Notes under the pieces: generated by a model
The model's input: the letters and a program-made list of their open reading frames with translations, nothing else
Databases searched by the model: none
What the model was told of the DNA's origin: nothing
Assembly: GCA_965242615.1 (NCBI GenBank)
Contig: CBDESR010000005.1
Coordinates: forward strand, 1,300,768 to 1,364,767
Length of the DNA: 64,000 bases
Origin: Dehalococcoidia bacterium
Lineage (GTDB): Bacteria; Chloroflexota; Dehalococcoidia; Lucifugimonadales; UBA3495
Direction of reading: 5' to 3'
In this document: piece by piece, positions 7,003 to 39,413 of the stretch
How positions within the stretch are numbered: position 1 is the stretch's first letter
How the letters are laid out: each line of letters starts with the position of its first letter
Made by a program: the position numbers and the translations under genes

Positions 7003-7014
7003 GGTCGGGCAGGA

Positions 7015-9458: not shown

Positions 9459-9585
9459 TGGAATTAGCCCTCTCTTGCCGGGTTTTCGTCATTATACACT
9501 ATAACCGCAACCGCCCCTTGTTAGCAATGGCGCGGCCAGTTATAATGGCGGAGAGCCGGCAACGAAATCACAAGGGGGAAAATTA

Positions 9586-9933: not shown

Positions 9934-9953
9934 AAGCAGAGGAGTGCCGGCTC

Positions 9954-12173: not shown

Positions 12174-12221
12174 ACGGGGCGGAACCTTTGGGAAAGGTTA
12201 GGTTTGGCGGGTAGTTTGGGA

Positions 12222-20009: not shown

Positions 20010-20024
20010 GCTAAAGGATACCGC

Positions 20025-21758: not shown

Positions 21759-21817
21759 AGCGCACGACCATCATGTGGATTATTGGGCCAATTATAGCAC
21801 AGCACAGTATAAAAGCA

Positions 21818-21869
21818 GGGGCGCACCCCGCGGGATGCGCCCCCTAATCCATTGCCGGCTGATGGACTG
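21818..21869. repeat. 52-bp hairpin-containing repeat, copy 1
   Basis: GGGGCGCACCCCGCGGGATGCGCCCCCTAATCCATTGCCGGCTGATGGACTG; 50/52 identical to 35255..35306. Contains the 8-bp stem GGGGCGCA/TGCGCCCC. Confidence 0.9.
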
Positions 21870-22042
21870 CCCTCCCAGCAGGTCGACAGTGGTAACGACA
21901 ACGCCCCTTAATCACTGCGCCGGCTAAGACTGTCCTACCTCATCGCTATTGTTGCTCAGCCCACGGCAAGACAGCCCGAATGCCTGGGGCAGGAGGGGAC
22001 GAGTGCCGCCAGCCTTTTACCACCCTGCGTTGCTGGCTGGCG

Positions 22043-22211
22043 GGATGGACAGGAGTTTGTGCCGGGGTTTGAGACGGATGAGCCGGGGGCGTTTCTGGAT
22101 TTGGTGATGGCGCTGCGGGAGTTGGCGGCGCGGCCCTACACGCTGCGGGACACGCCGATATTTACGGGTTTGCGGAAGTCGGTGCGGGAGTGTTTGGAGG
22201 GGGTGGGGTGA
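22043..22211 (+). pseudogene. Orphan 3' fragment of a ChdC-like gene (direct repeat copy 2)
   Basis: Encodes ..QEFVPGFETDEPGAFLDLVMALRELAARPYTLRDTPIFTGLRKSVRECLEGVG* in frame with its own stop but no 5' part. Confidence 0.85.
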
Positions 22212-22237
22212 TGCAGAAAATTCTGCGTAGGCCAACG

Positions 22238-23236
22238 TCAGAACGGAAGGTCGTCAATATCCCTTTCTGCCCTTGCTACGGGGCGCGCAGGCCGCAACAT
22301 TCGCTCGAAATGTGCCTTCAGGTCTTCCATGACCTCTGGCACGTATTCAGGCAACACGCGTTGCGTCCTGGTTATCAGGTTGACCATATCTTGGAAAGAC
22401 CTCCGGGCCTTCGCAGAATCGCCATCTCTCGCACTTCGATAGGCATCCATACCAAGATCGTAAAGCCAAGGCGAACTCTCTTTAAGATCACTAAGCAGCA
22501 CGAGGAAACCGGGAGCACCCGAGAGCCTCATTGCAATCACCCTAGATTGCTCTGACGAAACGAAATATGACCTTCCTTGCGGTATGCGGAGGGCCATTAC
22601 TTCGTCCAGTCTTGCCGAAAGACGACGGAGTTCCCGACTTTCCAGCCTACTGCCTACAATCTCCACCAAGTTTGACAGTTCGCTACGCACTTCAGATATG
22701 GTGGATAGCATATCTGCTATGGTGCGTTGCTCCGGGTCCTCGCTCTGGCGCAATCGTTGGAGGTCTAGGGCAACTGAGATAGGGGTCTCCAAGTCGTTGG
22801 GGTTGGCTTGCAGAGCCTTGACTTGTTCAGCAATGGACGTCTTCGCTTTCGCCACGTTGTCAAGGTCGTGGAGATCGATAAATACCGTTCGATTTCCTGC
22901 AACGTCAAAAGGTATTTCCTCACCCACCCGTATAATTTGCACGAACGGCTTAACTATGGCGTGGCGGAGGGCCAGTTCATAAAATACATTGGGATTCCGG
23001 TCAGTCAGGTCGGCGATGACAAGGTCGTCATCTACGATATGTTGAATTACCTGGCTCGTAATAATGCCAGGCTTGTCGATCTCGTCAGCCCGAGTAGACA
23101 CGTACCCCAGAGGCTCCACCGCCGGGCGAATGATGTGCTGGAGGACTTGATCGGAGTGCTTGCGGATCTCCGAATCAGGCTCACCAATCGGCGCGATAAC
23201 GAAACAGGACTTGCTGCCAGACTCTACCATCATCAT
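22238..23236 (-). CDS. Hypothetical protein with N-terminal TIR-like / nucleoside 2-deoxyribosyltransferase-like Rossmannoid domain and helical C-terminal half
   Basis: CFVIAPIGEPDSEIR...IIRPA...RADEI..PGIIT..VI..I...DLVIADLTDRNPNVFYELALRHA..KP pattern. Confidence 0.45.
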   Translation of the reverse strand: MMMVESGSKSCFVIAPIGEPDSEIRKHSDQVLQHIIRPAVEPLGYVSTRADEIDKPGIITSQVIQHIVDDDLVIADLTDRNPNVFYELALRHAIVKPFVQIIRVGEEIPFDVAGNRTVFIDLHDLDNVAKAKTSIAEQVKALQANPNDLETPISVALDLQRLRQSEDPEQRTIADMLSTISEVRSELSNLVEIVGSRLESRELRRLSARLDEVMALRIPQGRSYFVSSEQSRVIAMRLSGAPGFLVLLSDLKESSPWLYDLGMDAYRSARDGDSAKARRSFQDMVNLITRTQRVLPEYVPEVMEDLKAHFERMLRPARPVARAERDIDDLPF

Positions 23237-23614
23237 CTCCCGTTCGTCTGCCCTTACCTCTGGTCTTACTGGGGTAAAGATGCCGTAAGAATTTATACGG
23301 CCGCCAGATTTTATTATATGTGATTATCGTATGTCAAGCACATTGTGTCCATTTTATAGCCCCGTGCAAAAATCCTCTAGATTTCTTTTCCGTCCACCAA
23401 TGAAGACGAATTCCGCCGTTTTTCGCAGGAATTGTGACGGGGTGGAAATTTTGTGAAGGAGGAGTATTCTGCCTGTTTGGACTTTTGTTGGGGCGATTTC
23501 TATGACCGAATGGCTTATCCACTTGAAGGAACCAAGTGGTATTCAGACCGCGAGATAGAGTACGTTGTGACATCGATAGGGATTTAACCGTGGCTAGTTG
23601 TCCCGCCCTTTTGC

Positions 23615-24475
23615 CTATGGGCTTAGGCCGAAGGTGTTGATCCAGATGAGGGCTGTGGTACGGGATCGTTCTGCCTCAGATTTGGTTATGTTCCACTCTT
23701 GAGAGATGGCGCTGTAAGCATCCTCATCAGTCTGGCTTGCGGTGGCAAGCACACTTTCGATGAATGGTGATGCTTGCAGGGATAAACGAACCCAAGCGTT
23801 GAACTGCTCCTTGGCCAAGCCGGAGGGGATAGCTAATATCCCGACTTCCCTGATGGCGATTTCCTGTTGCTCGAGCGTAGGAATTTCAAGCCCACGCTGC
23901 TGGTATGCCAACCATAGGTAATCCGGATTTCGGGTGAGCGGCTTCCAGCCATCAAAGGATTCTGCGGTGTCTTGCCGTTCCAGCGGCGTATCAGAATGGA
24001 GGGTCGGGATAATCTGGTTCCAAGCATCGAACTCGGCATCGGAGACTTCGTGGGCTTTCAGGAATAGGAGGTGTTCAAACCATTCCGCGTCAAAGTCGGC
24101 CGGAGGTGGGCAAAGGATTTCCACGTTGCCGTTGCCATAAATGCTCATGCCAGCGTTGGTGAGGTTGGCCGAGCCTACCAAGACATTACTGTCGAAGCGG
24201 TAGTACTTGGCGTGAAGCCGGTTGTGGAGCAAAAAAGTTCCGTTGAGGCCCAGCACGAGAGGCCGGCAAGCCAAGTCAGTTGTTCCGGCTTGGATGTCCT
24301 GCGGAGTCCAGCGCGACACGCAGGTTATGCTGGCATCCGGAGCGATGGAGTTCAGGACAAGCGTCAGCGGTTGCTCCTTGATGTAAGGAGCAACTATGAC
24401 TGCTTCTTGGGCGTTGGCACAGGAAGCAGTTAATATTTCCCAGCAAGTGGGGTTATTCGGGAGAGTCGACGACAC
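23615..24475 (-). CDS. Phospholipase D-family (HxK) nuclease
   Basis: LHAKYYRFDSNVLVGSANLTNAG = HxK(x4)D(x6)GSxN (H88 codon at 24214..24212). GTG start overlaps the upstream stop by 23 nt. Confidence 0.8.
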   Translation of the reverse strand: MSSTLPNNPTCWEILTASCANAQEAVIVAPYIKEQPLTLVLNSIAPDASITCVSRWTPQDIQAGTTDLACRPLVLGLNGTFLLHNRLHAKYYRFDSNVLVGSANLTNAGMSIYGNGNVEILCPPPADFDAEWFEHLLFLKAHEVSDAEFDAWNQIIPTLHSDTPLERQDTAESFDGWKPLTRNPDYLWLAYQQRGLEIPTLEQQEIAIREVGILAIPSGLAKEQFNAWVRLSLQASPFIESVLATASQTDEDAYSAISQEWNITKSEAERSRTTALIWINTFGLSP

Positions 24476-26300
24476 CCTCGTCCATCAGCCTGCTTAAGAT
24501 GCGGCCCCATCGCCGACAAGTGTCTTGGAAATCGACTCGGGTTCGCTGGTCCTGGATTTCGTCTTCCATCCGGGCCAAGGCCAAGATGATAAGCCGGAGG
24601 GCACTGGCCGGGCGGCTGTCTTGCTCGTTGTTTTCCGAGCCAGCCTGGTTTTCCAGGAATTCAAGGTAGTCGTATGCCGGGTGATTGATGTTGAGTTTGA
24701 CCACCAATACCCCGGATTGGGAGGTTTCAACTTCAAACACCGCAGAGCCGCTGAGGCTCGCGTTGATGAACTTGTAACGGTATCGGCGTTCTACCGTTAT
24801 CTGGGCCTGCCTCTGGGCTTCCTCTAACGGGAGTCCCGATTCAGTAAGGTCTTTGGTGAGCTCTTCTATTTTCACGGTGTCTTCCACCGTGTCGAAAAGG
24901 TCATCGGTAGGCGTCCGCTCGGACTCTGAGTTGCGGAGAGCTTCCTCAATTGCTTGAGTGCCCAGTTCTTCCGCTTTTTGAACGGTGGTTACCGAGGAGA
25001 TGTCAACCGGACTGGATGGGCGAGGGCGCTGACTGAATTTGCGCTGGATCTCGCGCATCATATAGCGGACGGTGTTCCGGATATGTTCCGCTATGCCGTA
25101 CAGGTCGGTTTCCAGCCCGTCGGTCTCGTCTCGGGCCTCGGTGTCGCCGCTGTCTGACAAGTTCAGGTCTCGAAGTGCCCTGACAAAATGGGACACCGTT
25201 TGTTTGTTGTGGTCTACTCCGAAAAGGTCGTCGCACCCCTCGTTGAATTTTACTTCGCAGCCCCACCACCGGTTCAAAGGATGTGATCCACCTCCTTGGT
25301 CGGTGGTTGCCATGGTGCGGTCCAGAGTTATCTCGCGGTTTTCCCGAATGATGGAAACTCCCATGTTTTTGTTGGCGTGTTGACCGTAGTCGCGCTGGCC
25401 AGGCAGGTCACGGTAATTGCCTAAGGGTTCGCTTTTGACTAAGGAATACGTGACGGTGACGGTCTCCTCTTTGCCGTCAACTATGACGGTAAAATCCTGT
25501 GTGCGGAGGAGGTCGAACATAGGTTGGGCACCCCAGACTCCTGGGGTGTTTGAGGTTGGCATCAGATAAAGGGGATCGTTAGGTCGGACCTGCGCCTCGG
25601 CTATGATGGTGTTGTCCGGTTCCCAGAAGGAAGCCATCCGAATTGTCAAGGATTGGCTGTTGATGTAATGCCGGTAGATCCGCCCGATTTCCTCCTCGAT
25701 ATGTCGGAATACTGTGTCGGATCGCATAGTGATGCGGTCGATGTCGGACCACACTACCAGGGTGCCGCTGGAACTGACATTTTGTTTGGCTAGTTGCAGC
25801 CATTCTTGCGGGACAGGTTGCCGATCGGGAAAGATTAGGGACTGTTGACCGGCTTCCACTTCTTCTATGGATAGATAGGCGTGGTGGGAGCTGTCGGGGC
25901 CGTCTTGCCAGGACCAGACGTCTAATTTCTTGCACTGGGATGCGGACGACGTAGGCAACCCCATGCCATACTTTCCGATGGTTCTGACGCTTTGGAGAGG
26001 CTTGTGGCCTCCGAAGGACAGGGCTAAGGATAACGTCTCGGGAGACATACCTTCACCATTGTCGAGGACGGCGATTTTTTGAATCCGCTGGACGGTCCTG
26101 GTGGGGCCGGGGACTTGGGCTTCTTTAACCAAGAGTTCTACTTGGGAAGCGTTGGCATCAATGGAGTTGTCGATGAGTTCGGCGATGGCGTTGGCAGCAT
26201 GGGGGTAACGGCTGTCCCGGAGGGCCCTTATGAGCATCGCGGGCTGGAAGATGGGATTTGAGTCCGAGGAGCCGCTTTGGATACTTACGTCGGTTGCCAT
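24453..26300 (-). CDS. GHKL-superfamily ATPase, MORC/paraMORC-like
   Basis: ORF 24453..26477; I prefer ATG 26300 (MATDVSIQ), a 16-nt overlap with the helicase stop. N-box ELIDNSIDA, G1 VLDNGEGM, G2 IGKYGMGLPTSS. Confidence 0.8.
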   Translation of the reverse strand: MATDVSIQSGSSDSNPIFQPAMLIRALRDSRYPHAANAIAELIDNSIDANASQVELLVKEAQVPGPTRTVQRIQKIAVLDNGEGMSPETLSLALSFGGHKPLQSVRTIGKYGMGLPTSSASQCKKLDVWSWQDGPDSSHHAYLSIEEVEAGQQSLIFPDRQPVPQEWLQLAKQNVSSSGTLVVWSDIDRITMRSDTVFRHIEEEIGRIYRHYINSQSLTIRMASFWEPDNTIIAEAQVRPNDPLYLMPTSNTPGVWGAQPMFDLLRTQDFTVIVDGKEETVTVTYSLVKSEPLGNYRDLPGQRDYGQHANKNMGVSIIRENREITLDRTMATTDQGGGSHPLNRWWGCEVKFNEGCDDLFGVDHNKQTVSHFVRALRDLNLSDSGDTEARDETDGLETDLYGIAEHIRNTVRYMMREIQRKFSQRPRPSSPVDISSVTTVQKAEELGTQAIEEALRNSESERTPTDDLFDTVEDTVKIEELTKDLTESGLPLEEAQRQAQITVERRYRYKFINASLSGSAVFEVETSQSGVLVVKLNINHPAYDYLEFLENQAGSENNEQDSRPASALRLIILALARMEDEIQDQRTRVDFQDTCRRWGRILSRLMDEGVVDSPE

Positions 26301-27535
26301 ATTTGCTCCCAGTTCTGGAAGGCTTCGGTTATCGAACCGAATTCCAGTAGTTTGGAGTCGAGCAGGGTATAAATCTGACACCTGCGGTTTCCGCCGGATC
26401 GTTCGCCCCGCATCGCCCGTCCTATCATCTGGGAGTATAGGACGAGAGATGTAGTTGGTCTGGCGACTATTACGCAACTGGTGCGCGGAGCATCAAAGCC
26501 TGCGGTTAATACGCCATAGTTTAGCAAAGCCATCGCCTCGGAGTCAATACTCCGGAAGCGGTCGATCGTTGATTGGCGTTGCTCCGATGGGGTACTACCA
26601 GTGATGCTTTCGGCGTGATGTCCCATCCCATTCAGGATGCCGGTGCAGTGATGGACGCTGGCCAGGGATGGGCAGAACACTATGACCCGGCGATGAGTGA
26701 CCAGTGCCCGGGAGGTTACCCGGATTATTTCCTGCTGCCAATTGGGGTCTTGGCCGATTTGGCGTAGGGTTGACCCGGAGTAATCTCGATCCTCGGACAC
26801 ATTCTGAAGCGGCAAGGTCGAGGTCAAGGATATAGGTGTGAACTGTGGGGCAGCCAAGTACCCATTCTTAATGAGATAGGTTACCGGATCAGGGTGTCCT
26901 TTTGGGTCTATAGTTACCTTTTGGAAGTTGAAAAACTCCGCTAGTTGCTGGTCCTGCTCCCCGGGTGTTGCAGAGCGTCCCGGCGTTGCCGTGAGTCCCA
27001 GCAAAGGCGGCTCATAGGTGAGGAGTTGCTTTGTGACGAACTGATAGGTGTTGGCAATGGACTGATGGGCTTCGTCAAATATCACCGCTGCAGCGCGGTC
27101 TGCCAAGTTTATGAGCAATTGCTGGTTGCTCCCGGATACGGAGTAGAGCTTGGCCAATCCAGTAACCAAGAAGCCGGGTTCGTAAGCAATGTCTCTGGCG
27201 TCTCCCCAATAGCGTTGGATGTGGGCCGGGCGGTTGCCCAAATACGACCAAGCAGTCGCGAGATTTTCTGCCGCTTGTTCGCACAGCTCCTCGCTGGCCG
27301 CCAGCCAGATCAGGATTTTTCCTTCGTTGGCCTTCTGGTTCAGAATGTGGCAAGCCACGTGGCAGGCCAACCGGGTCTTGCCGGCGCCGGTAGGCAGATG
27401 GGCAATGGCTCGGGGGCCTGTCCCGAAACGGGGCGGTGTAGTAGGGCACAGGAAATCAAGCAGGTCGTGCATGACCTGCCTCTGATAGGGGTACAGCTGG
27501 TAATTGGGTTGGACTACGTTCGGATTAGATACCAC
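26285..27535 (-). CDS. SF2 DEAD/DEAH-box helicase
   Basis: LPTGAGKT (Walker A), VIFDEAHQS (motif II), GLTATPGR (III), QMIGRAMRG (VI). Confidence 0.85.
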   Translation of the reverse strand: MVSNPNVVQPNYQLYPYQRQVMHDLLDFLCPTTPPRFGTGPRAIAHLPTGAGKTRLACHVACHILNQKANEGKILIWLAASEELCEQAAENLATAWSYLGNRPAHIQRYWGDARDIAYEPGFLVTGLAKLYSVSGSNQQLLINLADRAAAVIFDEAHQSIANTYQFVTKQLLTYEPPLLGLTATPGRSATPGEQDQQLAEFFNFQKVTIDPKGHPDPVTYLIKNGYLAAPQFTPISLTSTLPLQNVSEDRDYSGSTLRQIGQDPNWQQEIIRVTSRALVTHRRVIVFCPSLASVHHCTGILNGMGHHAESITGSTPSEQRQSTIDRFRSIDSEAMALLNYGVLTAGFDAPRTSCVIVARPTTSLVLYSQMIGRAMRGERSGGNRRCQIYTLLDSKLLEFGSITEAFQNWEQIWQPT

Positions 27536-29156
27536 AGACGCCCTCGCATTCGTCGAGCATAATGCTATCGTAATCCGGAGTGTCAGTCAAGTCAATCTCC
27601 GACAAGGGCCGCCGTTCCCGATGCAGGTAGGCATAGCCTTTCCTGCTGATGCCGTTCCTGACGGTTTGGTCGTTGCGGAGGGCGTGGTCAACCAGAATGG
27701 CATCTTGGAAAGACTCAGGGTCATGGTCTTTAAGCCACTTCCATTCAGCGTTGGTGTGGTAAGGGCAGCCGATGCAGGAACTGCGCGGCAAATAGCGGTC
27801 GGGGTAACGTTCCTTGAACCAGATCAACGCTTGGACCCGGCTTATCCCCAGATCTACGAGGGGAAACCGGTTTTCAATCCATTCCTCCTGGCTTTTTTTG
27901 GCCCGTATGGCCTCGTCGGAACTGATACCCATCCAGACTTCGGCATAGACAGGTTTTTGTGCCCGGCGTCCGGGTTGCAGCCCCATGCGTTGACGCAGCA
28001 GGTCGTGAATGGGCTTGATTTTGTACTTGCTGGTGCATTGGCGGCGGGCCAGCGCCGAGCTGCCGTCCGGGTTGGTGATGAAAGCCGGGATGGTCAGGTA
28101 GGGTTTGCCTTCGGGACTGACGCCTTTCAAGATGTTCTCGCGGAGGCTGCCGTTATTGACCCGTACTATCTCAAAGGATACTTGGGATTGCAGCCACTCC
28201 AAGTGTTCGTAGATATGAGGAGGTTCCCATCCGGTGTCGGCGAATATAGCTAGGTCAGGCTTTTCGAGTCCAGAATAGCCTTGCTCGGCCATCAAAGCAA
28301 GAACGGTGGACTGGACGCCGGCACCCAGACTAAGGGACCTGATAGTGGGCGTACGGTTCAGCAACCTTTTGCGGTCGCTGACGAAGTCGGGGTTTGCCAT
28401 AATGTCAGCCAAGTGGGCTTGCAGCAGGCCCCTGATTTCGTCGCGGGGCAAGGCTTCCAGTATTTGCGTGCCGGCGTCGAGGTTGATGCGGCGGAACAGT
28501 TCCATGCCTCCGGCTTCGGCTTTCATGCCTTTGCCTTCATTGAGGAGAGCCCGGACGAATTCTGCTAACAGAATCGGCGAGCGTAGAACAGCGGAGCGGA
28601 GCAGTATGTGGTAATGGACAGCGAACTTGGCAAAGTGTTCCAGAGCCTGTTCTGCGTTGAAGGCTCCGGCCGACGCTTCAGCCGCTTTGACGGCGGTGTG
28701 GGCAATCCACCAGGTCCGGCCGGCTGTGTTGCTGTTCCAAAGGGCGGTTCCCTGGTTCTCTATGAACCAGTGGGCTTTGATGTAGTCCGGCAGATTTGTG
28801 GCCCTGGTGCGACGCCAGCGCTTCAAGCCATAGGCGTGGAGCTTGAAATGGGCCAGCCAAGTCCACATCCTGGTATCGGTCGCGGTTGCTGGAGTGATGC
28901 CCGGCAGGGAATTATAGAAACCCAGCGCTTGCCGATCGGCCAAATTGGCGTTGCCGGAACTGACCGGTTCCAAGATGAGAGGATGGATGGTGTTGATTCC
29001 CGTTTCCTCTGTCGTGCGGGTTACGCCCTCGGCGGCGAGGATTTCGGCAAAGTCGGTTTCGGGATTAAGGTAGGTTTCCGGACTCTGCTCGGCTACCAAC
29101 CGGAGGCAGTCGTAAGCCTCTTGGGTTAGTTTGAGGATGGGGAAACCTGCTGACAT
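27525..29156 (-). CDS. PAPS-reductase-like PP-loop enzyme (DndC/IbrA-like) with about 265-aa uncharacterised N-terminal domain
   Basis: aa 274-284 SLSLGAGVQST (variant of the SGGxDS PP-loop), RRQCTSKYKIKP, C-terminal CIGCPYH. The N-domain is Trp-rich helical (RMWTWLAHFKLH..., RTWWIAHTAV). Confidence 0.7.
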   Translation of the reverse strand: MSAGFPILKLTQEAYDCLRLVAEQSPETYLNPETDFAEILAAEGVTRTTEETGINTIHPLILEPVSSGNANLADRQALGFYNSLPGITPATATDTRMWTWLAHFKLHAYGLKRWRRTRATNLPDYIKAHWFIENQGTALWNSNTAGRTWWIAHTAVKAAEASAGAFNAEQALEHFAKFAVHYHILLRSAVLRSPILLAEFVRALLNEGKGMKAEAGGMELFRRINLDAGTQILEALPRDEIRGLLQAHLADIMANPDFVSDRKRLLNRTPTIRSLSLGAGVQSTVLALMAEQGYSGLEKPDLAIFADTGWEPPHIYEHLEWLQSQVSFEIVRVNNGSLRENILKGVSPEGKPYLTIPAFITNPDGSSALARRQCTSKYKIKPIHDLLRQRMGLQPGRRAQKPVYAEVWMGISSDEAIRAKKSQEEWIENRFPLVDLGISRVQALIWFKERYPDRYLPRSSCIGCPYHTNAEWKWLKDHDPESFQDAILVDHALRNDQTVRNGISRKGYAYLHRERRPLSEIDLTDTPDYDSIMLDECEGVCGI

Positions 29157-29159
29157 TTT

Positions 29160-30008
29160 CTACTCCGTTTCCGCAACGTTGGTCACGCTGGTCAAGAGCC
29201 GGCCTATAGGCGCCTCCAGTATGATTTGGGCATAGTGGGGCGCATTGCGGCGGATGCTTTCGGCATCGTGGTCTATTTTATACCGTTCCAGCGCGGATTG
29301 TATAGCTTGGGACCAGAGGGATTCCGGGTAATCTTGGTAGCAGTGGAGCGCTTGGGTGACTACGTTCAAATAGAACGCGGAGATTAGGGCTGCCTGCCCC
29401 ATTTTGCTGTGGGTCTGGCTTCTTACCCGTTCCAGTGTGATTTTATCTACGGGATTGACGTAGATTTTTATTCGGTCGGAATTGAAGTCCAACTCGTATA
29501 AACCGGGCTTGGTAGCGGGATTTGGCACCAAGTCAATCACCGAGCTGGCATTGGTTTCCTTGATGATGACTCGCTTTGAGGCTGCGACGGCCAAGATGGC
29601 TCCCCGGGGCAGGTCAAAACCTTCAGGCTTCAGTTCCCGTATTTCCGGGTTATGTTCAGGGGCTTGGAAATCGGATACCGGCTTGACGGTGATGATATAT
29701 GGGGTGACGACTATTTCGTCGGCGTAGTTTTCCGCGGGCAGCGAGAGGTAATGCTGCCGGTTCTGTCCCGAGAGGTGCAGCTCTCGGCTATAAGTGCGGA
29801 CGCACGTGGTTTGTACCGCGTAATCTGCTCCTCCTTGACCAATCAAGGATTGCAGGGTTTCGCTGTTCAGCAAATACTCCAGCGTAAGGTTGATTACCTC
29901 CCCGTTGCTGAGTACGCTGTTGCGCACTTGGCAACTGAAGCCCGATTGGGGGTAATCGTCGGTATCATCCGACAGGAGCGGGTAGGGCAGGAGGCGTTGA
30001 CGCCACAT
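29160..30008 (-). CDS. Hypothetical protein (282 aa), operon member
   Basis: Clean ORF, 3-nt and 9-nt gaps to its neighbours; no motif I recognise. Confidence 0.5.
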   Translation of the reverse strand: MWRQRLLPYPLLSDDTDDYPQSGFSCQVRNSVLSNGEVINLTLEYLLNSETLQSLIGQGGADYAVQTTCVRTYSRELHLSGQNRQHYLSLPAENYADEIVVTPYIITVKPVSDFQAPEHNPEIRELKPEGFDLPRGAILAVAASKRVIIKETNASSVIDLVPNPATKPGLYELDFNSDRIKIYVNPVDKITLERVRSQTHSKMGQAALISAFYLNVVTQALHCYQDYPESLWSQAIQSALERYKIDHDAESIRRNAPHYAQIILEAPIGRLLTSVTNVAETE

Positions 30009-30017
30009 ATACGTTAC

Positions 30018-31787
30018 CTATTCCGGCTGTAGAGTGAAAGCCATCCGGCTGATGTCTTGCCCGGCAGTAATTTTAAGCCGGACGCGTTCGTTAGGTTTGG
30101 TGGTCAGGGTAATGGCGCCCGCCTCCACTTGTATTGGCTCTTCGGGGCGGTCGAGGCTCTCGGCGCTGATGATGAGTAGAGGGGTATCATTCTTTCTTTC
30201 ACCCCCGGTCGGAAACAGCTTTACCGTGGTACTGCCGGCCTGCATAGCAGTGAAACCGACGACCGCTTCGTTGACGCCGGTACAGACGACCCGTTGATCC
30301 TTCAGCGCCGGCGGATGGTGGTCGTCTAATAAGCTTGGAGCCAGGGGTCGCAACATAGATGAAACTCCTGACCTGATTTCCACCGTAGTCAGGTTGCGTT
30401 CCTTAGTTTCTTCTGCATACTGCTCCGGCAAAGCGTATGCCAGTTCAGTCAAGTTGCTGACGCCCGGATACTCAGAGATGTCGAATATCTCCTCGTAGGT
30501 CACGTTCAAAGTGTTTCTGGCGTGGGTCAAAGTCGCTTCGGCAAATTGACGCTCACTGGCCTCCGCGATTTTCTCCGAAGTGATGGCGTCGTGTCCCGGG
30601 TTTTCCATACTGCGGAGCCAAGCATCGCCCTCATTTGTTGCCGGGATGACAACGGCGGCGTAGTCGGGCCAATAGCTATGGTTTGGCGGAGAGAGCGGGT
30701 TGTGCTTGCGCTCCCGGCTGTCGGTAATGAGCATACCGTTGCGGTTCAGGCAAGCCGTTCGCCGGGGACCTTCTCCTTTGAGGATATATGCTTTCAGGAC
30801 TCCCAGTGGCGAGTCCGTTGATACGCTCGTCGCGGTTCGATCGCGGATTGCCCGATAGTAAGCGTAGGAGGAGCTGTTGCTGGCTAAGGCAAAGTGCTGG
30901 TCGAGGGTCTCGTGGTTAATGAGTACCGACGGTTGTTCCGGCTGCCCCTGGATGGCAACCGTCAAATCCTGATTGTGGATCGCAAAGAAATAGTTTTCGA
31001 TGACGGCCAAGACAGCGGTTGCGACCCAATTGGAGCACCGCGGGTTGAAACCGAGAATAAACACGCCGGTGCCGGTCTCTGCCAGTCGGAAGCAGGAAGG
31101 TATTTCCGTTCCGCGCAGTGGTCGGCCGGATGCCGTACGGTAGAATCCGATGTGCTGGAGCGGCGTAGGCTTCGCTTCAGGCAAGGCGTGAGTTATCAGG
31201 CGGCTCTTTCCTTGCGTCTTTTCTTCGCGTCCTTGTCGCCGGGCCAAGTACCGCGTCGAGTATATGACGGAATACAGGTCACTGACATTGAAAACAGCGT
31301 TCTTGCCCATCCCGTAAGAACCGCCGGCGGCGTTTTTGTCCTTGCGGACTATCCCTTCTTGGGTTACCAGAGCATTCCATTTCTCGCCGACCAGCCCGGT
31401 TGTGCCGGTATCGACAACGCTGAGACAAGGGATGGTCGGGTTATCGATGCAGTTTAGGGCTTTGGCATAGGCAGCTACGGCATCGGTCTCGTTCCGTGCT
31501 TTGGTAATTTCCAAGCAAGCTGCGATGTGGGCGGAGAGCGCCGGGCCGCCCATGGCATCAGTAGGCACTTCGACCTCAGTAAAGGTCAAGTGAACTGGTT
31601 GAATCAGCCCATCAACTTTGGCATCCAGCGCGTTCTGGAGCAGCTCGCGCACCAAGTGGACCATCGGGGAGGCTTGAAAATGCGCGGCGGCGGCGTTTTC
31701 GAAGCCGTATTCGACGCCATCGTTGTTGGGCGGGAACTGCCAAGTGGCCTGCTGTTTGGGAGATGCAGTCAAAATCATTTGCTCCAA
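30018..31787 (-). CDS. GHKL-superfamily ATPase (HSP90/sacsin-like N-terminal module) with large C-terminal region
   Basis: RELLQNALDA (N-box), VVDTGTTGL (G1), GGSYGMGKNA (G2). The start may be ATG 31778. Confidence 0.65.
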   Translation of the reverse strand: MEQMILTASPKQQATWQFPPNNDGVEYGFENAAAAHFQASPMVHLVRELLQNALDAKVDGLIQPVHLTFTEVEVPTDAMGGPALSAHIAACLEITKARNETDAVAAYAKALNCIDNPTIPCLSVVDTGTTGLVGEKWNALVTQEGIVRKDKNAAGGSYGMGKNAVFNVSDLYSVIYSTRYLARRQGREEKTQGKSRLITHALPEAKPTPLQHIGFYRTASGRPLRGTEIPSCFRLAETGTGVFILGFNPRCSNWVATAVLAVIENYFFAIHNQDLTVAIQGQPEQPSVLINHETLDQHFALASNSSSYAYYRAIRDRTATSVSTDSPLGVLKAYILKGEGPRRTACLNRNGMLITDSRERKHNPLSPPNHSYWPDYAAVVIPATNEGDAWLRSMENPGHDAITSEKIAEASERQFAEATLTHARNTLNVTYEEIFDISEYPGVSNLTELAYALPEQYAEETKERNLTTVEIRSGVSSMLRPLAPSLLDDHHPPALKDQRVVCTGVNEAVVGFTAMQAGSTTVKLFPTGGERKNDTPLLIISAESLDRPEEPIQVEAGAITLTTKPNERVRLKITAGQDISRMAFTLQPE

Positions 31788-31804
31788 CAGTATATGGATA
31801 AGCC

Positions 31805-31833
31805 AGTTTAAGTAATCCAGCGCGGAATTGCAA
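31805..31833 (-). promoter_or_regulatory. Putative promoter of the six-gene operon
   Basis: Minus strand: TTGCAA (31833..31828), 17-nt spacer, TAAACT (31810..31805). Confidence 0.3.
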
Positions 31834-32113
31834 GGATAACAAGAAGATACCCGTTTCAGGTCCTATTCACTGTTATTGACTGGTGGGATAAAAGGGTAGC
31901 GCTTGAGCAAAGGGAGGGTCTCGATTGGCGTAGCAGTGCGGCTGTAAGCTGCCTAGTCCGCCTAGCGGATGATGGGTTATACCGGCAAGGGTAAGCGGTT
32001 CTGGAACGAGGCGGCGGGATAATTGGCTGGAGGCGGGGCTGAGCCGGCCGGCTGGCTTGTTGCAGCACGGTGGAGGGCTTGGGGGTGATTGGCCGGCTGG
32101 CAGTTGCTCCTGA

Positions 32114-32398
32114 TTAGAGCTCGATATTTTCGAGGAAGTCCAGCCACGGCGGCGGCCAAGCGGCGGGCTCGCCAGTTTCCGTGGTGGTTGGAGCCGGGGT
32201 GCCGCCCGAGGATTGGGCGGCTAGTTGACGGCCAATATCGTTCCAAGCTGCGGCAATGTCCAGATAGTACGGGATGGCGGCTTGGTCGGCCGGTTGTTCC
32301 GTCGCTATGTTCAGGGCGAAGGCCAGAGCGTTGACGGTGCCGATGGCGGCCAGGGCGGCCGGCGCCGGCAGGGCGATGAACTGGTTGGCCCGGGTCAT
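32114..32398 (-). CDS. Hypothetical protein (94 aa)
   Basis: ATGA overlap with the upstream 150-aa ORF; no recognisable motif. Confidence 0.4.
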   Translation of the reverse strand: MTRANQFIALPAPAALAAIGTVNALAFALNIATEQPADQAAIPYYLDIAAAWNDIGRQLAAQSSGGTPAPTTTETGEPAAWPPPWLDFLENIEL

Positions 32399-32847
32399 GG
32401 GCCGGGACTCCAGCAGGCGTCCAATGCGTTCAAGTCCTGCTGGTCCGGGCGGGTGGTCGCGACTAGGGCGTTCAGGAAGGTCTGCGGGTTCTGTACGAAG
32501 TACTCCAGTCCCAGGTCGGTGACGGCCTGGCGTTGGCCGGCGGCTTGGGCCTGTTGGCTCAGTTCCGGGACCTCGGCGTAGGCGACGCTGCGCGCGATGC
32601 GAAGCATATAGCTGGCTTTGGCCTCCCGGCCGGCAGCGCTGCCCTGTTCTATGACGATGCGCAACAGGTTGGCAGCGTGTTCCTCCTGTTGCTGGTCCAA
32701 GTCGGCGATGTAGCGTTGCAGCAGCAGGTCGATTTCGGCCCGGGGCTGGTCGGACAGAGCTAAACCGGTAATGGCTTGGGCAATGCTGCTTGCCCGGGCA
32801 CTTACGGCGTTGGGCTGGTAGCGGCTGGGGATGTTTTCGTATGGCAT
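32395..32847 (-). CDS. Hypothetical protein (150 aa)
   Basis: Coupled to 32114..32398; helical-looking; no recognisable motif. Confidence 0.4.
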   Translation of the reverse strand: MPYENIPSRYQPNAVSARASSIAQAITGLALSDQPRAEIDLLLQRYIADLDQQQEEHAANLLRIVIEQGSAAGREAKASYMLRIARSVAYAEVPELSQQAQAAGQRQAVTDLGLEYFVQNPQTFLNALVATTRPDQQDLNALDACWSPGP

Positions 32848-33192
32848 GGCTTTGGTTCGAGGATAGGCCGTTGGCTGCCGGAGATTATAGTCCGCTGGCT
32901 GGGTGCGGTCAAGGAATGGGATTATGGAGAGGGTAGTCCGTGGTTTGAGCCTTTAATTTGGTGGTTTCTTTACCGGTTGCTCAGGTGGGAGCTGATTATT
33001 CCGGCTGAGAGCGCCATTCCAAAAGTTCTGCTGGCTGCTTCGGTGAAAGTCAGTCTTTCTGGCCGGAGAGCGCCGGGCATCGTTTTGGTCAACCAACAAA
33101 AACATTTCAGGAATGCATTTATGAGTGTTGGCTTTTCCCGGTTCTACCTTGCCAGTCATTAATCTTGGGAAGCTCTGTGGGCCGGGACCGCT

Positions 33193-33333
33193 TTACGGCC
33201 GTTGCCGTGGCCGGTTCCAGTAAGGGTTTTTGCACTTGGGGCAAACCTTGGGTTCAGCTATGGACTTTCGGTTCGGCACCCATTCGTGGCCGCAGCGTTC
33301 GCAGCGGTATCCGATGACGGTGATGATTGCCAT
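33193..33333 (-). CDS. Small zinc-ribbon protein (46 aa), below the ORF-track cutoff
   Basis: Manual translation gives MAIITVIGYRCERCGHEWVPNRKSIAEPKVCPKCKNPYWNRPRQRP* with a GGAGGAACC RBS 5 nt upstream. Two CxxC pairs. Confidence 0.5.
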   Translation of the reverse strand: MAIITVIGYRCERCGHEWVPNRKSIAEPKVCPKCKNPYWNRPRQRP

Positions 33334-33561
33334 TAAGGTTCCTCCGATGGCTTCTCTATTTTCCTGATAGTATCATAGTATAAGGGTATCCCTTTGGAGT
33401 GCTTGGGGAAAGTTCTTGCAGGGGTCGGATTCGCCAAGTTTCATAGCGGGACGGGATCCTGCCATTAAAATCAGCGGGGTTTCCGGTCGATAATTTACCC
33501 GCAAGGAAACTGACATAAAATTCGTCCATTTCACTCTTGACTTCGGTTGCCGCACTAATGT

Positions 33562-34959
33562 TTGACTAATATAATGGCGGCAACAAGAGAGACCGTCGGG
33601 CAGCCCCCCGACGGCCTCAGTATGACGCACCCCAGACCCCGAGAAGGCGAGATGGTCATCGCTTATCCTACATTATCTTATGGCCCTTTGCAACCGACCC
33701 AGTCGGGCTCGGCCAAGTTGGAGAGCCTCGAGTTTTTCGTCGGGCAATGGGACTTGGAGAGGGTTTTCGCGGAGTTGAACCTGCCATCCTTGGCTCAGAG
33801 CTTGGAACCAGATCGCTCCGACCCAAGGGGGCGGCCGCGGTACTCGCGGTTGGCGTTTCTGAAGGGATTTTTCCTGGCCAGGGCCAGGGGCTGGGAGAGC
33901 ACGGCGCAATTGGTTAGGGAGCTGCGGCTGAACCCGTCGTTCGCATATTTCTGTGGCTTCGGAGAGGAGGATAACGAGAGGCCTGTCATCAGGATACCGC
34001 ATCGGACCACTTTCTCCCGGGTCTTTGCCGAGGTTTGCCAGGTGTTTCCTCTACTCGAAAGCCAGCTCCGAGAGATTGCGTGGGGGTACGCTTCCCTTGT
34101 CGAGGGTTTTGGGCACGATCTGGTAGTGGACGCTTCGGTGGTGCCGACCAATTCCAATCCCAACAAACGTCCTAAGGGAGGGCTATCCCGGTATACTGAT
34201 CCGGAGGCTGGCATTGCGGTGAAAAACTCGCCGCGTTCTCTGGCCGGCAAGGTAAAAGTGCTTGGCTACGGCTGTCATTCGGCAGTGGATGCGAAGACCG
34301 GTTGTTTGCTGGACTTGGTAGTTTCGCCGGGCGGAGTCCATGAAACAACATTGCTGGGCGGGGTGGTTGACCGGCTACTGGAGCGGTATCCGCAACTGCC
34401 TTTCAACACTTTGATTGCCGATCGGGGTTATGACTCCAAGCTGAATAATGTGAATCTTCATAAACTGGGGATTACTCCGGTGATTCACAAGCGGCGGCCG
34501 CGGGGAGGAGCCTTGCACGTTGGGATTTATAATACCGCAGGGACACCCACTTGTGTCGGCAGGCAGCTAATGATTTTTGCGGGTACTGACCCGCGGACTG
34601 GGCAACGGTTATATCGGTGTCCTCCAGGGGGTTGTCATTTGCAGGGCCGGGTTCTGGTTACCAAGTTCTGCGATAGTGAGGTAAGGGTGAACCCGGAGGA
34701 TGACGTTCGCCTTTTCGGAGGCGCGTTGCGCCGGGACGGACCGGAGTGGCAGGCCAAGTACTGGATGCGCTGGACGGTGGAGCGGCTGTTTTCCGAGTGG
34801 AAAAGGGAGGGGCATATCGAACGACACCACTTCCGGGGGAAGGATAAAGTTGAAACCTTAGTCATCCTCCAAGCGATGTTCTCGGCGGCTAAGGTTTTGA
34901 GCCGGGTGCGCCAAGGAGAAGTTTCCGGGCTGCATCGGGGGATGTGGCCGGTAAAGTGA
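33562..34959 (+). CDS. IS5/IS1182-type DDE transposase
   Basis: DUF772-like N-terminal region (YSRLAFLKGFFLARARGWESTAQLVRELRLNPSFAYFCGF), DASVVPTN, IADRGYDS, YWMRWTVERLFSEWKR (Y-R-E-K signature). Element ends not confidently found. Confidence 0.85.
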   Translation: MTNIMAATRETVGQPPDGLSMTHPRPREGEMVIAYPTLSYGPLQPTQSGSAKLESLEFFVGQWDLERVFAELNLPSLAQSLEPDRSDPRGRPRYSRLAFLKGFFLARARGWESTAQLVRELRLNPSFAYFCGFGEEDNERPVIRIPHRTTFSRVFAEVCQVFPLLESQLREIAWGYASLVEGFGHDLVVDASVVPTNSNPNKRPKGGLSRYTDPEAGIAVKNSPRSLAGKVKVLGYGCHSAVDAKTGCLLDLVVSPGGVHETTLLGGVVDRLLERYPQLPFNTLIADRGYDSKLNNVNLHKLGITPVIHKRRPRGGALHVGIYNTAGTPTCVGRQLMIFAGTDPRTGQRLYRCPPGGCHLQGRVLVTKFCDSEVRVNPEDDVRLFGGALRRDGPEWQAKYWMRWTVERLFSEWKREGHIERHHFRGKDKVETLVILQAMFSAAKVLSRVRQGEVSGLHRGMWPVK

Positions 34960-35254
34960 GCGCGGGTCGCGGAATCGTGTCCGGGCAAGCGATTAGTCGA
35001 CTGTCCCAGTCGATCGGAGCAGGCTGAAGGCAGGTCGGGGTAGTCTGGGTGTTTGATCTGGACAAGAACTTTATGTTTTACGGGGCGTCTTAAAGACGTC
35101 CTGAATTTTTGTGGGGCGATGCCAGTGTTTTCAGGTTATGTGGAATTACGGAATTCGTCACAATGGGTTAATAATTTTCTTGGAGTGCTGATTTTTGCAC
35201 GGAGCTAATTTTAGGAATTGCGAGCAAAACTTTGATTACACAAGAATTATGTAT

Positions 35255-35306
35255 GGGGCGCACCCCGCAGGATGCGCCCCCTAATCCATTGCCGGCTGAC
35301 GGACTG
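35255..35306 (-). terminator. 52-bp hairpin repeat copy 2, directly after the aconitase stop (probable terminator)
   Basis: Lies 1 nt downstream of the TAA (35310..35308). Stem GGGGCGCA/TGCGCCCC; same element as 21818..21869. Confidence 0.6.
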
Positions 35307-35307
35307 A

Positions 35308-39369: not shown

Positions 39370-39387
39370 CCCACTATGATATACTAT

Positions 39388-39413
39388 CCCCCCCAGCAAA
39401 ATGGAACAGAACC
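39388..39413. repeat. Right terminal inverted repeat of the IS6-family element
   Basis: CCCCCCAGCAAAATGGAACAGAACC matches 48668..48693 at all but one position. IS6-family ends (IS26/IS257), as I recall them, begin GG(C/T)(A/T)CTGTT. Confidence 0.7.

What the first reader, a model, noticed from the sequence alone, without database searches (positions are those of the whole stretch)
21818..35306. 52-bp hairpin repeats delimit the 13.4-kb AT-richer island; interleaved A-B-A'-B' repeat pattern
A 52-bp element, GGGGCGCACCCCGC(G/A)GGATGCGCCCCCTAATCCATTGCCGGCTGA(T/C)GGACTG, occurs at 21818-21869 and again at 35255-35306 (50/52 identical). The second copy starts 1 nt after the aconitase stop and looks like its terminator. 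Together with the ChdC 3' repeats the order is: ChdC-3' (A), ATPase cassette, hairpin (B), about 170 bp, ChdC-3' fragment (A'), defence island with IS, hairpin (B'), aconitase. Inference: the ancestral junction was ChdC-3'/hairpin/aconitase. Two alternative cargo cassettes for the same hotspot are now arranged in tandem, either by recombination between variants or by duplication followed by cargo replacement.
Basis: partly seen in the sequence, partly recalled or inferred. Interest (0 to 1): 0.65.

Follow-up and report, generated by a model that had tools for sequence, protein, structure and literature searches.

The report
Two defence cassettes stacked between ChdC and aconitase
The 52-bp repeat is the terminator region of the aconitase gene, present twice because two alternative versions of a variable defence-gene slot between the ChdC and aconitase genes have been joined in tandem; most of the "island" is a separate 11.9-kb transposon, so this is a clear but ordinary case of defence-island turnover.

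Summary
The 52-bp element occurs exactly twice in the window (21818-21869 and 35255-35306, 50/52 identical), interleaved with a 167-nt repeat of the ChdC 3' end (19841-20007 and 22043-22209, 96%).

- **What the 52 bp is:** the intrinsic-terminator hairpin plus 25-nt 3' trailer of aconitase. It sits at the same place after the aconitase stop in seven related Chloroflexota contigs. It was not found elsewhere in the related DNA examined.
- **The slot:** the ChdC-aconitase interval holds a different defence-like cargo in each relative.
- **Single-cargo versions exist:** L021, L025 and L026 have only the OLD-like ATPase next to the hairpin and aconitase. L023 has only the 330-aa gene.
- **The tandem is real:** an independent assembly (L020, 96.7% identical) has the same arrangement.
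- **The only new joint:** the last 8 nt of aconitase fused to a 164-nt spacer. In L025 and L026 that spacer lies downstream of a DUF7700 gene and already abuts a decaying ChdC 3' fragment.
- **The island:** most of it (23357-35207, 11,851 bp) is an IS1182/IS5-like transposon with 18-bp inverted ends and a 6-bp ATTTTA target duplication. It carries a multi-gene defence cargo and is absent from L023.

The hairpins are relics of flanking sequence, not boundaries of a mobile element. This is a new member of a known kind.

The parts
19311..20009 (+). Intact ChdC (chlorite-dismutase family, 232 aa). Its last 167 nt form repeat A (19841-20007).
   Evidence: Pfam Chlor_dismutase 2e-53. 94% aa identity to P0001 over the full length, including the C-terminus. 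Repeat D8.
20025..21758 (-). Cargo 1: a single-gene ABC-type ATPase (577 aa) related to OLD, AriA and GajA defence ATPases.
   Evidence: Pfam AAA_15/AAA_21. PADLOC AriA, NsnB and GajA partial hits at 1e-21 to 1e-15. Best PDB sequence match is OLD-family nuclease 6p74. It lies next to the aconitase terminator in L021, L022, L025 and L026.
21818..21878 (-). B: a displaced copy of the aconitase terminator. It comprises a 25-nt trailer, a 12-bp hairpin followed by TGCTTTTAT, and a degenerate relic of the aconitase stop plus its last two codons (21870-21878).
   Evidence: -39.8 kcal/mol on the - strand; scored as terminator-like. L020 keeps CCTACCCG after B. B lies 59 nt upstream of the ATPase ATG. 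The aconitase-stop-to-ATPase-start distance is 112 nt in L021 and L025 (gene tables), and the same spacing is implied in the window.
21879..22042 (.). Spacer. Positions 21915-22028 are homologous (82%) to the region just downstream of a DUF7700 gene in L025/L026. Its left edge is the one non-homologous joint of the tandem.
22043..22212 (+). A': a pseudogene fragment of the last 167 nt of ChdC. It has a TGA stop and private substitutions, including a Ser-to-Leu change.
   Evidence: The gene caller in L020 found a 50-aa ORF here with a weak Chlor_dismutase hit.
22238..23236 (-). Cargo 2a: a 330-aa protein with an N-terminal nucleoside-2-deoxyribosyltransferase/TIR-like fold and a helical C-terminal domain. 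Its function is unproven.
   Evidence: PADLOC TIR effector 3.6e-7. No Pfam hit. AF2 model with pLDDT 78. Foldseek best PDB hits are NDT, DNPH1, MilB and TIR, with E about 2e-3 and target-normalised TM up to 0.67. It is the sole cargo in L023.
23351..23356 (.). Left copy of the 6-bp target-site duplication ATTTTA.
   Evidence: L023 has a single ATTTTA at this point.
23357..35207 (.). An 11,851-bp passenger-carrying transposon. Its 18-bp terminal inverted repeats, TAGC(C/T)CCGTGCAAAAATC, are at 23357-23374 and 35190-35207. A subterminal GACGAATTCCG motif occurs at both ends.
   Evidence: The inverted repeat is found only at these two places, in inverted orientation. End alignment. L023 provides the empty site.
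23615..31787 (-). Passenger defence genes. PLD-like (23615-24475), GHKL/MzaB-like ATPase (24453-26477), SF2 helicase (26285-27535), PDC-M33C with DUF6339 plus an SspD-like domain (27525-29156), PDC-M33B (29160-30008), and PDC-M33A (30018-31787).
32114..33333 (-). Small ORFs of unknown function inside the transposon: 94 aa, 150 aa, and a 46-aa zinc-ribbon protein (33193-33333).
33562..34959 (+). DDE transposase, IS1182/IS5-like.
   Evidence: Pfam DDE_Tnp_1 plus DUF772. NCBIfam IS1182 2e-30, below that model's cut-off.
35208..35213 (.). Right copy of the target-site duplication ATTTTA.
35255..35306 (-). B': the native aconitase 3' trailer plus terminator hairpin.
   Evidence: The orthologous position is conserved in relatives.
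35308..37578 (-). Aconitase (756 aa).
   Evidence: Pfam Aconitase 5e-134. 94-96% nt identity to L001, L021 and L025.

Best explanation
ChdC (+) and aconitase (-) converge on an intergenic slot. In this Chloroflexota lineage that slot behaves as a defence-gene hotspot.

The 52-bp element is aconitase's own 3' trailer and Rho-independent terminator. Each version of the slot has the form 'ChdC 3' end, cargo, terminator, aconitase'.

In the window, two different versions are concatenated:
- Unit 1: full ChdC, OLD-like ATPase, terminator B, last 8 nt of aconitase.
- Unit 2: spacer from downstream of a DUF7700 gene, 167-nt ChdC 3' pseudogene, 330-aa NDT/TIR-like gene, terminator B', intact aconitase.

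The tandem needs only one non-homologous joint, at about 21878/21879 (aconitase position -6 fused to the spacer). It also needs homologous recombination in a shared flank, either the 167-nt ChdC 3' region or the terminator/aconitase. Two routes fit:
- Homology-facilitated illegitimate recombination of incoming DNA from a related strain.
- Campbell-type single crossover of a circularised 2.2-kb segment (spacer, ChdC fragment, ATPase, B).

Afterwards, an 11.85-kb IS1182/IS5-like transposon with a multi-gene defence cargo inserted between the 330-aa gene and B'. It duplicated ATTTTA at the target.

The displaced hairpin B now sits 59 nt upstream of the ATPase start. It probably still terminates minus-strand transcription entering from unit 2.

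The direct repeats make the array metastable. A/A' recombination would delete the ATPase unit. B/B' recombination would delete unit 2.

Shown: the anatomy, the orthology of the terminator, the single-cargo versions, the empty transposon site, and the shared spacer/fragment joint.

Inferred: the recombination route and its polarity, terminator activity, and the defence function of the cargos.
For: - **Repeats real and sharply bounded:**
- **Hairpin plus trailer lies immediately after the aconitase stop** in L001, L003, and L021, L022, L025, L026 and L023. By direct reading of the rows, stem pairs are exchanged in L003 and L022 (A-U becomes G-C; C-G becomes U-A in L003). T-runs follow the hairpin in most copies. 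B is scored as a terminator.
- **Variable cargo in relatives:**
  - L001: ParA-like plus HEPN.
  - L003: PDC-M02B at 7e-98, plus an 83-aa gene.
  - L005: TIR.
  - L021, L025, L026: the ATPase.
  - L022: the ATPase, with a type IIG RM and an HKD-Snf2 helicase on the far side of the ChdC fragment.
  - L023: the 330-aa gene.
- **L021 is colinear with a single-cargo version:** it matches window 19953-21871 and then directly 35255-37136, with one hairpin. L023 is colinear with 22058-23356 and then 35208-35450.
- **Flank markers sort by unit**:
  - A's downstream sequence (TAGGCTAAAGGATACC) and B's CCTACCC match the ATPase version in L025 and L021.
  - A' with TGA and B' with ATTACCC match L023.
- **Independent confirmation:** assembly L020 has the same tandem at 96.7% identity. 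The similarity is mosaic: ChdC 93.4%, ATPase 97.7%, the 330-aa gene 100%.
- **The spacer/ChdC-fragment joint is older:** it is also present in L025 and L026, with different secondary deletions.
- **Transposon ends, target duplication and empty site:**
Against: - The direction and route of the recombination cannot be resolved. Aconitase shows no clear mosaic breakpoint.
- Neither L021 nor L023 reaches far enough to show whether its ChdC is full-length.
- The breakpoints lie unusually close to gene ends: aconitase position -6, ChdC about -167 to -170, and about -165 in L022 with a different left flank. Random illegitimate recombination does not predict this.
- B' lacks a good U-tract (ATACATAATTC).
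- The complete source genome could not be searched for further copies of the 52-bp element.
Confidence: 0.72

Rival explanations
1. In-situ tandem duplication followed by cargo replacement. The inter-gene segment (spacer, ChdC fragment, ATPase, B) of an L025-type genome duplicated in place. The aconitase-proximal ATPase copy was then swapped for the 330-aa gene through the A and B flanks. The left end was later rejoined to a full ChdC through the 167-nt homology.
For: - L025 and L026 show the exact unit 'DUF7700, spacer, ChdC fragment, ATPase, B, aconitase'.
- The novel joint links the two ends of that unit.
- The window's aconitase is closest to L025 and L026, at 95-99%.
Against: - It needs at least three events, against one or two for the preferred model.
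- The left copy is attached to a full ChdC with no DUF7700 or spacer on its left.
- A/A' and B/B' carry version-specific markers that match different relatives (L025/L021 against L023), as expected for two imported versions.
Confidence: 0.18
2. A site-specific integrative element. Either A/A' are attL/attR of an element that targets the ChdC 3' end and supplies a replacement 3' end (as e14 and phage 21 do at icd), or B/B' are att sites of a 13.4-kb island.
For: - The direct repeats restore an intact ChdC ORF and leave a displaced 3' fragment.
- A ChdC fragment truncated within about 10 nt of the same position occurs in L022 with a different left flank.
Against: - No tyrosine or serine recombinase lies between or next to the repeats. 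The only recombinase is a DDE transposase, whose cognate ends are the 18-bp inverted repeats.
- No tRNA is present.
- B carries the aconitase stop codon relic and is simply the orthologous terminator.
- The ATPase, B and aconitase diverge together across relatives at 80-95% identity, as vertically linked genes would.
- The fragments in L025 and L026 decay by random deletions.
Confidence: 0.07
3. The 52-bp element is a genome-wide REP/MITE-like repeat and the bracket is coincidental.
For: These genomes do contain many dispersed 35-150-nt intergenic repeats.
Against: - There are only two copies in the 64-kb window.
- In about 115 kb of related Chloroflexota DNA it occurs only at the aconitase 3' end or its displaced copy.
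- A scan of 185,579 species genomes gave 14 unrelated single hits and no multi-copy genome.
- The JGI metagenome scan gave 9 hits with no homology to the window.
- B keeps the aconitase stop relic.
Confidence: 0.02
4. Assembly chimera. Two co-existing strain versions were mis-joined through the shared repeats.
For: The source is probably a metagenome-derived 2.29-Mb contig. Strain variants of this locus co-occur in the same sample series.
Against: - An independent assembly from another sample (L020), 3.3% divergent, has the same joint and order.
- The joint contains a 164-nt spacer that a repeat-mediated mis-join would not create.
Confidence: 0.02

Closest known systems
Core defence hotspots between conserved genes (P. 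aeruginosa cDHS, PMC10250203; E. coli defence-island hotspots, PMC10121019)
   Same: A fixed slot between two conserved chromosomal genes holds different defence systems in different strains. Exchange appears to go through the conserved flanks. No dedicated integrase is present.
   Different: This one is in uncultured Chloroflexota. Two alternative occupants are retained in tandem, with relics of both flanks marking the seam. One flank gene (ChdC) is itself displaced to another locus in some relatives (L024/L025).
Displacement arrays formed by homology-facilitated illegitimate recombination: V. cholerae T6SS effector-immunity arrays and Rhs C-terminal displacement (PMC5361080, section 13)
   Same: An incoming module is anchored by homology on one side and joined illegitimately on the other. 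The old module is pushed downstream, leaving orphaned 3' fragments of the conserved gene. Successive events build arrays.
   Different: Here the modules are defence cassettes between convergent housekeeping genes, not toxin/immunity pairs. Relics of both flanks are duplicated (ChdC 3' end and aconitase terminator). Only one round is visible.
Integration of e14 and phage 21 into icd, with a duplicated alternative 3' end (from my own knowledge, not checked here)
   Same: A duplicated 3' gene segment of about 165 nt keeps the target gene intact and leaves a pseudo-3' fragment at the other end.
   Different: Those elements encode an integrase and have a defined att core. None is present here.
Passenger-carrying IS elements and defence-cargo transposons, for example Tn7-like elements (from my own knowledge)
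   Same: A transposase with cognate inverted ends and a target duplication mobilises a block of defence genes.
   Different: The transposase is IS1182/IS5-like. Elements of that kind are normally 1.3-2 kb without passengers; this one is 11.85 kb with about 9 passenger ORFs. Movement of the whole unit is supported by only one empty site (L023).
Rho-independent terminators
   Same: A G+C-rich 11-12-bp hairpin sits right after a stop codon and is followed by a T-run in most orthologues. The stem is kept through paired changes.
   Different: The native copy B' in this genome has a poor U-tract. The 25-nt trailer between stop and hairpin is unusually conserved among close relatives.

Membership tests
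Rho-independent (intrinsic) terminator | G+C-rich stem-loop immediately downstream of a stop codon, on the sense strand of the gene | tested here: met
   On the - strand there is an 11-12-bp stem 26 nt after the aconitase stop. Free energy of the 81-nt stretch containing it is -33.2 kcal/mol (B') and -39.8 kcal/mol (B), with z-scores of -2.8 and -2.2.
Rho-independent (intrinsic) terminator | U-tract directly after the stem | tested here: inconclusive
   B, L020, L021 and L025 have TGCTTTTAT or TGATTTTAT. L003 has TTTTT and L022 has TTTTTTT. B' and L023 have ATACATAATTCT. Only B passes the consensus scan.
Rho-independent (intrinsic) terminator | Structure conserved through compensatory change at the orthologous site | tested here: met
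   RNAalifold counted one double change (CG to UA). By direct reading of the rows, L003 and L022 also exchange A-U for G-C; the aligner offset those rows.
Rho-independent (intrinsic) terminator | Transcripts end there | not testable with these tools
   Needs Term-seq or 3' RACE.
Defence-island hotspot between core genes | Same conserved flanking genes with different cargo among relatives | tested here: met
   At least six different occupants next to the orthologous aconitase terminator and/or ChdC.
Defence-island hotspot between core genes | Cargo consists of anti-phage systems | tested here: inconclusive
   PADLOC and Pfam matches include PDC-M33A/B/C, PDC-M02B, type IIG RM, HKD-Snf2, TIR, HEPN and OLD/AriA-like. 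Several of these are only candidate systems, and none has been tested.
Site-specific integrative element (att-flanked island) | Integrase or recombinase encoded within or beside the repeats | tested here: not met
   No such domain was found in any ORF from 19 to 38 kb. The only recombinase is a DDE transposase with its own inverted repeats.
Site-specific integrative element (att-flanked island) | Direct repeats that duplicate the 3' end of the target gene and restore it | tested here: met
   A/A' are 167 nt at 96% identity, and ChdC is intact.
Site-specific integrative element (att-flanked island) | Precise empty site in relatives | tested here: inconclusive
   Single-cargo versions exist (L021, L023), but their contigs end before the ChdC -167 position.
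REP/MITE-type dispersed repeat | Many copies at unrelated intergenic sites in one genome | tested here: not met
   There are two copies in 64 kb. In about 115 kb of relatives it occurs only at the aconitase 3' end. No multi-copy genome was found in GTDB representatives. The full source genome was not available.
IS1182/IS5-type DDE transposon (for 23357-35207) | DDE transposase, cognate terminal inverted repeats, target-site duplication and an empty site | tested here: met
   DDE_Tnp_1 plus DUF772. 18-bp inverted repeats matching 17/18, found only at the two ends. ATTTTA is duplicated, and L023 has a single ATTTTA.
IS1182/IS5-type DDE transposon (for 23357-35207) | Score above the curated family cut-off, and typical IS size | tested here: not met
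   NCBIfam IS1182 scores 106 bits against a cut-off of 270, and IS5_4 scores 76 against 140. The element is 11.85 kb, against 1.3-2 kb for ordinary members (the size range is from my own knowledge).
HFIR-type displacement array | Orphaned 3' fragment of the conserved anchor gene between successive modules | tested here: met
   A' lies between the ATPase unit and the 330-aa-gene unit. The analogy is described in PMC5361080.
HFIR-type displacement array | One homologous and one illegitimate junction formed in a single uptake event | not testable with these tools
   Needs transformation experiments, or donor and recipient genomes.

The most novel reading that the evidence does not exclude
The units 'ChdC 3' fragment, cargo, terminator' might be integrase-independent, or trans-mobilised, cassettes. 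They would circularise and re-insert at the ChdC 3' end or the terminator, giving an integron-like array of defence cassettes in Chloroflexota. The hint is that breakpoints fall within a few codons of gene ends (aconitase -6; ChdC about -167/-170). A ChdC fragment cut within about 10 nt of the same point also occurs in a relative whose aconitase is only 87% identical (L022), with an unrelated left flank.
Probability: 0.07. Interest if true: 0.7.

Novelty: new member of a known kind. Interest (0 to 1): 0.33.

Why it matters
This is a fully resolved natural example, from an uncultured Chloroflexota lineage, of how defence hotspots grow. Alternative cassettes are exchanged through conserved flanks and are occasionally stacked. 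The stacking leaves diagnostic relics of both flanks: a terminator copy and a gene 3' pseudofragment. A cargo transposon adds a further layer.

Such paired relics could serve as markers for finding hotspot seams in metagenome-assembled genomes. The cargos are candidates for testing as defence genes: the OLD-like ATPase, the NDT/TIR-like 330-aa protein, and the PDC-M33 block with its helicase, GHKL ATPase and PLD-like genes.

The finding does not reveal a new kind of mobile element or mechanism.

Tried and rejected
- **Exact look-ups of the window's ChdC** (252-aa and 232-aa forms) found nothing. The source genome, a 2,294,267-bp contig, is known only from cluster tables and could not be fetched. 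The genome-wide copy number of the 52-bp element is therefore untested.
- **Scan of GTDB representative genomes for the hairpin:** 14 unrelated hits and no Chloroflexota.
- **JGI metagenome scan for trailer plus hairpin:** 9 hits, none homologous to the window.
- **A possible second copy of the B trailer inside the spacer** (about 21903-21934). It is only marginal against the window's own B' (9 of 500 shuffles scored as well) and absent against L001 and L025. I rejected it as evidence of an earlier round of stacking.
- **Homology between the 330-aa protein and the TIR_2 protein next to ChdC in L005:** none found.
- **A mosaic breakpoint in aconitase** that would give the polarity of the recombination: none seen.
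- **An inner left inverted repeat next to the transposase,** which would indicate a simple IS plus a solo end: none in the correct orientation.
- **Rfam and tRNA scans of 19-38 kb:** nothing found.
- **Pfam scan of the ATPase C-terminal 248 aa,** looking for Toprim: nothing found.

Full report
**1. Observation**

The 52-bp pattern matches only at 21818-21869 and 35255-35306, both on the + strand, against none expected by chance. The two copies differ at two positions, and similarity ends abruptly on both sides. A second direct repeat of 167 nt at 96% identity lies at 19841-20007 and 22043-22209. It is the 3' end of a chlorite-dismutase-family (ChdC) gene and stops at the last sense codon.

The gene order on the + strand coordinate is as follows:
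- ChdC (+, 19311-20009)
- a 577-aa AAA_15/AAA_21 ATPase (-, 20025-21758)
- B
- about 170 nt of spacer
- A'
- a run of minus-strand genes
- a DDE transposase (+, 33562-34959)
- B'
- aconitase (-, 35308-37578)

G+C is 0.51-0.575 across 22-35 kb, against 0.59-0.64 outside.

**2. What the 52 bp is**

Read on the aconitase strand, the element is a 25-nt trailer followed by a perfect 11-12-bp G+C-rich hairpin. The 81-nt stretch containing it folds at -33.2 kcal/mol for B' and -39.8 kcal/mol for B. Copy B is followed by TGCTTTTAT and is picked up by the terminator scan.

ChdC homologues place the window in Chloroflexota; the sources' own names for the hits are Dehalococcoidia and SAR202. I recovered the locus from related metagenome contigs through ChdC, ATPase and cargo homologues.

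In L001, L003, L021, L022, L023, L025 and L026 the same hairpin follows the aconitase stop directly. The trailer is also recognisably conserved in all of these except the more distant L003 and L022. In L003 and L022 the stem keeps pairing through exchanged pairs and is followed by T5 to T7 (direct reading).

B' is therefore the native aconitase terminator region. In the sister contig L020, copy B is still followed by CCTACCCG, which is the aconitase stop codon and last two codons. B is thus a displaced piece of an aconitase 3' end, not a free-standing repeat.

The element appears nowhere else in the window or in about 115 kb of related DNA. A scan of one genome from each of 185,579 species gave 14 single, unrelated hits. 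A JGI metagenome scan gave nine hits with no homology to the window. No Rfam family and no tRNA is present.

**3. The slot is a defence hotspot**

The occupant next to the orthologous terminator and/or ChdC differs among relatives:
- **L001:** a ParA-like ATPase plus a HEPN RiboL-PSP protein.
- **L003:** PDC-M02B at 7e-98, plus an 83-aa gene.
- **L005:** a TIR protein.
- **L021, L025, L026:** the same ATPase as in the window, at 80-95% nt identity.
- **L022:** that ATPase, with a type IIG RM enzyme (3e-101) and an HKD-Snf2 helicase beyond the ChdC fragment.
- **L023:** only the 330-aa gene.

**4. The window is two versions joined in tandem**

L021 is colinear with window 19953-21871 and then directly with 35255-37136, sharing a single hairpin. 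This is the ATPase-only version. L023 is colinear with 22058-23356 and then directly with 35208-35450. This is the version with only the 330-aa gene.

Flank markers sort the same way:
- The sequence after A's TAG stop, and B's CCTACCC, match L025 and L021.
- A' with its TGA stop, and B' with ATTACCC, match L023.

The tandem is not an assembly artefact. L020, from another sample, has the same order and the same joint at 96.7% identity. Its similarity is mosaic: ChdC 5' part 93.4%, ATPase 97.7%, spacer 95.7%, A' 94.7%, and the first 424 nt of the 330-aa gene 100%. That pattern is itself a sign of recombination.

**5. The spacer and the older joint**

Window 21915-22028 is 82% identical to the DNA just downstream of a DUF7700 gene in L025 and L026. 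There it abuts a shortened ChdC 3' remnant, followed by the ATPase, hairpin and aconitase. L025 keeps about 55 nt of ChdC and L026 about 77 nt. Their internal deletions differ, as expected for independent decay of a window-like 'spacer plus 167-nt fragment' ancestor.

In the 3.37-Mb genome that contains L025, the full ChdC lies about 2 Mb away, next to a Bax1-I gene (L024). The spacer/ChdC-fragment joint therefore predates the tandem.

The only joint specific to the tandem is at about 21878/21879, where the last 8 nt of an aconitase gene meet the spacer.

L022 carries a ChdC fragment truncated within about 10 nt of the same point but with an unrelated left flank. This may reflect common descent followed by a later insertion. 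It may instead hint at a preferred breakpoint. I cannot tell which.

**6. Mechanism**

The minimal history is one non-homologous joint plus homologous exchange in a shared flank (167 nt of ChdC, or the terminator/aconitase). Two routes fit:
- Homology-facilitated illegitimate recombination of incoming DNA.
- A Campbell-type crossover of a circularised 2.2-kb segment (spacer, fragment, ATPase, B) into the ChdC 3' end of a genome carrying the 330-aa version.

The same logic has been proposed for orphan-gene arrays in V. cholerae T6SS clusters and for Rhs loci (PMC5361080).

It is not excluded.

Aconitase shows no mosaic breakpoint that would give the polarity.

A site-specific element is unlikely. 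No integrase is present, and the ATPase, hairpin and aconitase diverge together across relatives.

**7. Most of the 'island' is a transposon**

Relative to L023, the window has an insertion of exactly 23357-35207 (11,851 bp). The evidence for a transposon is as follows:
- It is flanked by a duplicated ATTTTA (23351-23356 and 35208-35213); L023 has a single copy.
- It is bounded by 18-bp inverted repeats, TAGC(C/T)CCGTGCAAAAATC, which occur nowhere else in the window.
- Both ends share a subterminal GACGAATTCCG motif.
- No inner repeat lies next to the transposase, so the whole block is one unit.

It encodes an IS1182/IS5-like DDE transposase. Its passengers are:
- PDC-M33A, PDC-M33B and PDC-M33C (the last with DUF6339 and an SspD-like domain)
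- an SF2 helicase
- a GHKL/MzaB-like ATPase
- a PLD-like protein
- three small ORFs of unknown function

The insertion left intact a strong promoter-like site for the 330-aa gene, at 23337-23308 on the minus strand.

**8. Cargo identities**

The ATPase is an ABC-type ATPase with partial matches to AriA, NsnB, GajA and OLD. Its C-terminal 248 aa match nothing in Pfam.

The 330-aa protein has no Pfam domain. An AF2 model (pLDDT 78) gives an N-terminal flavodoxin-like domain. Its best PDB neighbours are nucleoside 2-deoxyribosyltransferases, DNPH1, MilB and TIR domains, but the matches are weak (E about 2e-3).

The defence roles of these proteins are inferred, not shown.

**9. Verdict**

- The hairpins are flank relics, not island boundaries or att sites.
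- The bulk of the island is an independent transposon.
- No empty site was seen in any relative.
- One of the joints is older than the tandem.

This is a well-documented but ordinary case of defence-hotspot turnover, and a new member of a known kind.

Noticed in passing
window 23357-35207: An IS1182/IS5-like transposase appears to mobilise about 10 kb of passenger genes as one unit, with 18-bp inverted repeats, a 6-bp target duplication and an empty site in L023. This is unusually large for that transposase type. The transposase scores below the NCBIfam cut-offs.
   Followed up: partly
L022:11746-11915; window 22043; L025:11752-11806; L026:11735-11830 (approx.): ChdC 3' fragments beside the ATPase recur in several lineages. 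The L022 fragment is cut within about 10 nt of the window's A' boundary but has a different left flank (a type IIG RM / HKD-Snf2 island). L025 and L026 show further independent deletions.
   Followed up: partly
window 19227: Homology to both L001 and L020 stops at the same point, 84 nt upstream of the ChdC start. The DNA to the left (CoA-transferase and M24 peptidase genes) is unrelated in those contigs. This may be another rearrangement boundary.
   Followed up: no
L025:5006-7385 and L026:5004-7383: A DNA methylase, a 316-aa protein and an HTH protein are inserted between the AIRS-domain gene (PF00586/PF02769) and the aconitase upstream region. The window instead has an IS240/rve-type transposase at 38188-39399 beyond aconitase. 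The other side of aconitase is therefore also variable.
   Followed up: no
L003:1-1713 and about 6650-12240; L020:3434-3851; window 48378-48409 / 48669-48700: These genomes carry abundant dispersed intergenic repeats of 35-150 nt; L003 has dozens of copies. The window's 32-nt inverted pair at 48.4/48.7 kb matches one of them, seen in L005. They are unrelated to the 52-bp element.
   Followed up: no
window 20025-21758 (ATPase family): This single-gene ATPase is very widespread at about 70% aa identity. All 8,000 scored candidates had E <= 1e-20, and source names among the listed hits include Chloroflexota and Rhodospirillaceae. That suggests a highly mobile, strongly conserved but uncharacterised defence-like gene.
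   Followed up: no
window 53658-55286; 49740-51470; 3935-4692 vs 6082-6833; 42819-43238: Other repeats in the window: 12 tandem copies of a 102-nt unit; proline/threonine-type low-complexity coding repeats; a pair of paralogous segments about 2.1 kb apart (74-91% identity); and three 105-nt tandem units.
   Followed up: no
window 22213-22661 vs L020: The start of cargo 2 is 100% identical between the window and L020, while the adjacent ChdC is only 93% identical. This indicates recent transfer of that cassette between diverged strains.
   Followed up: partly
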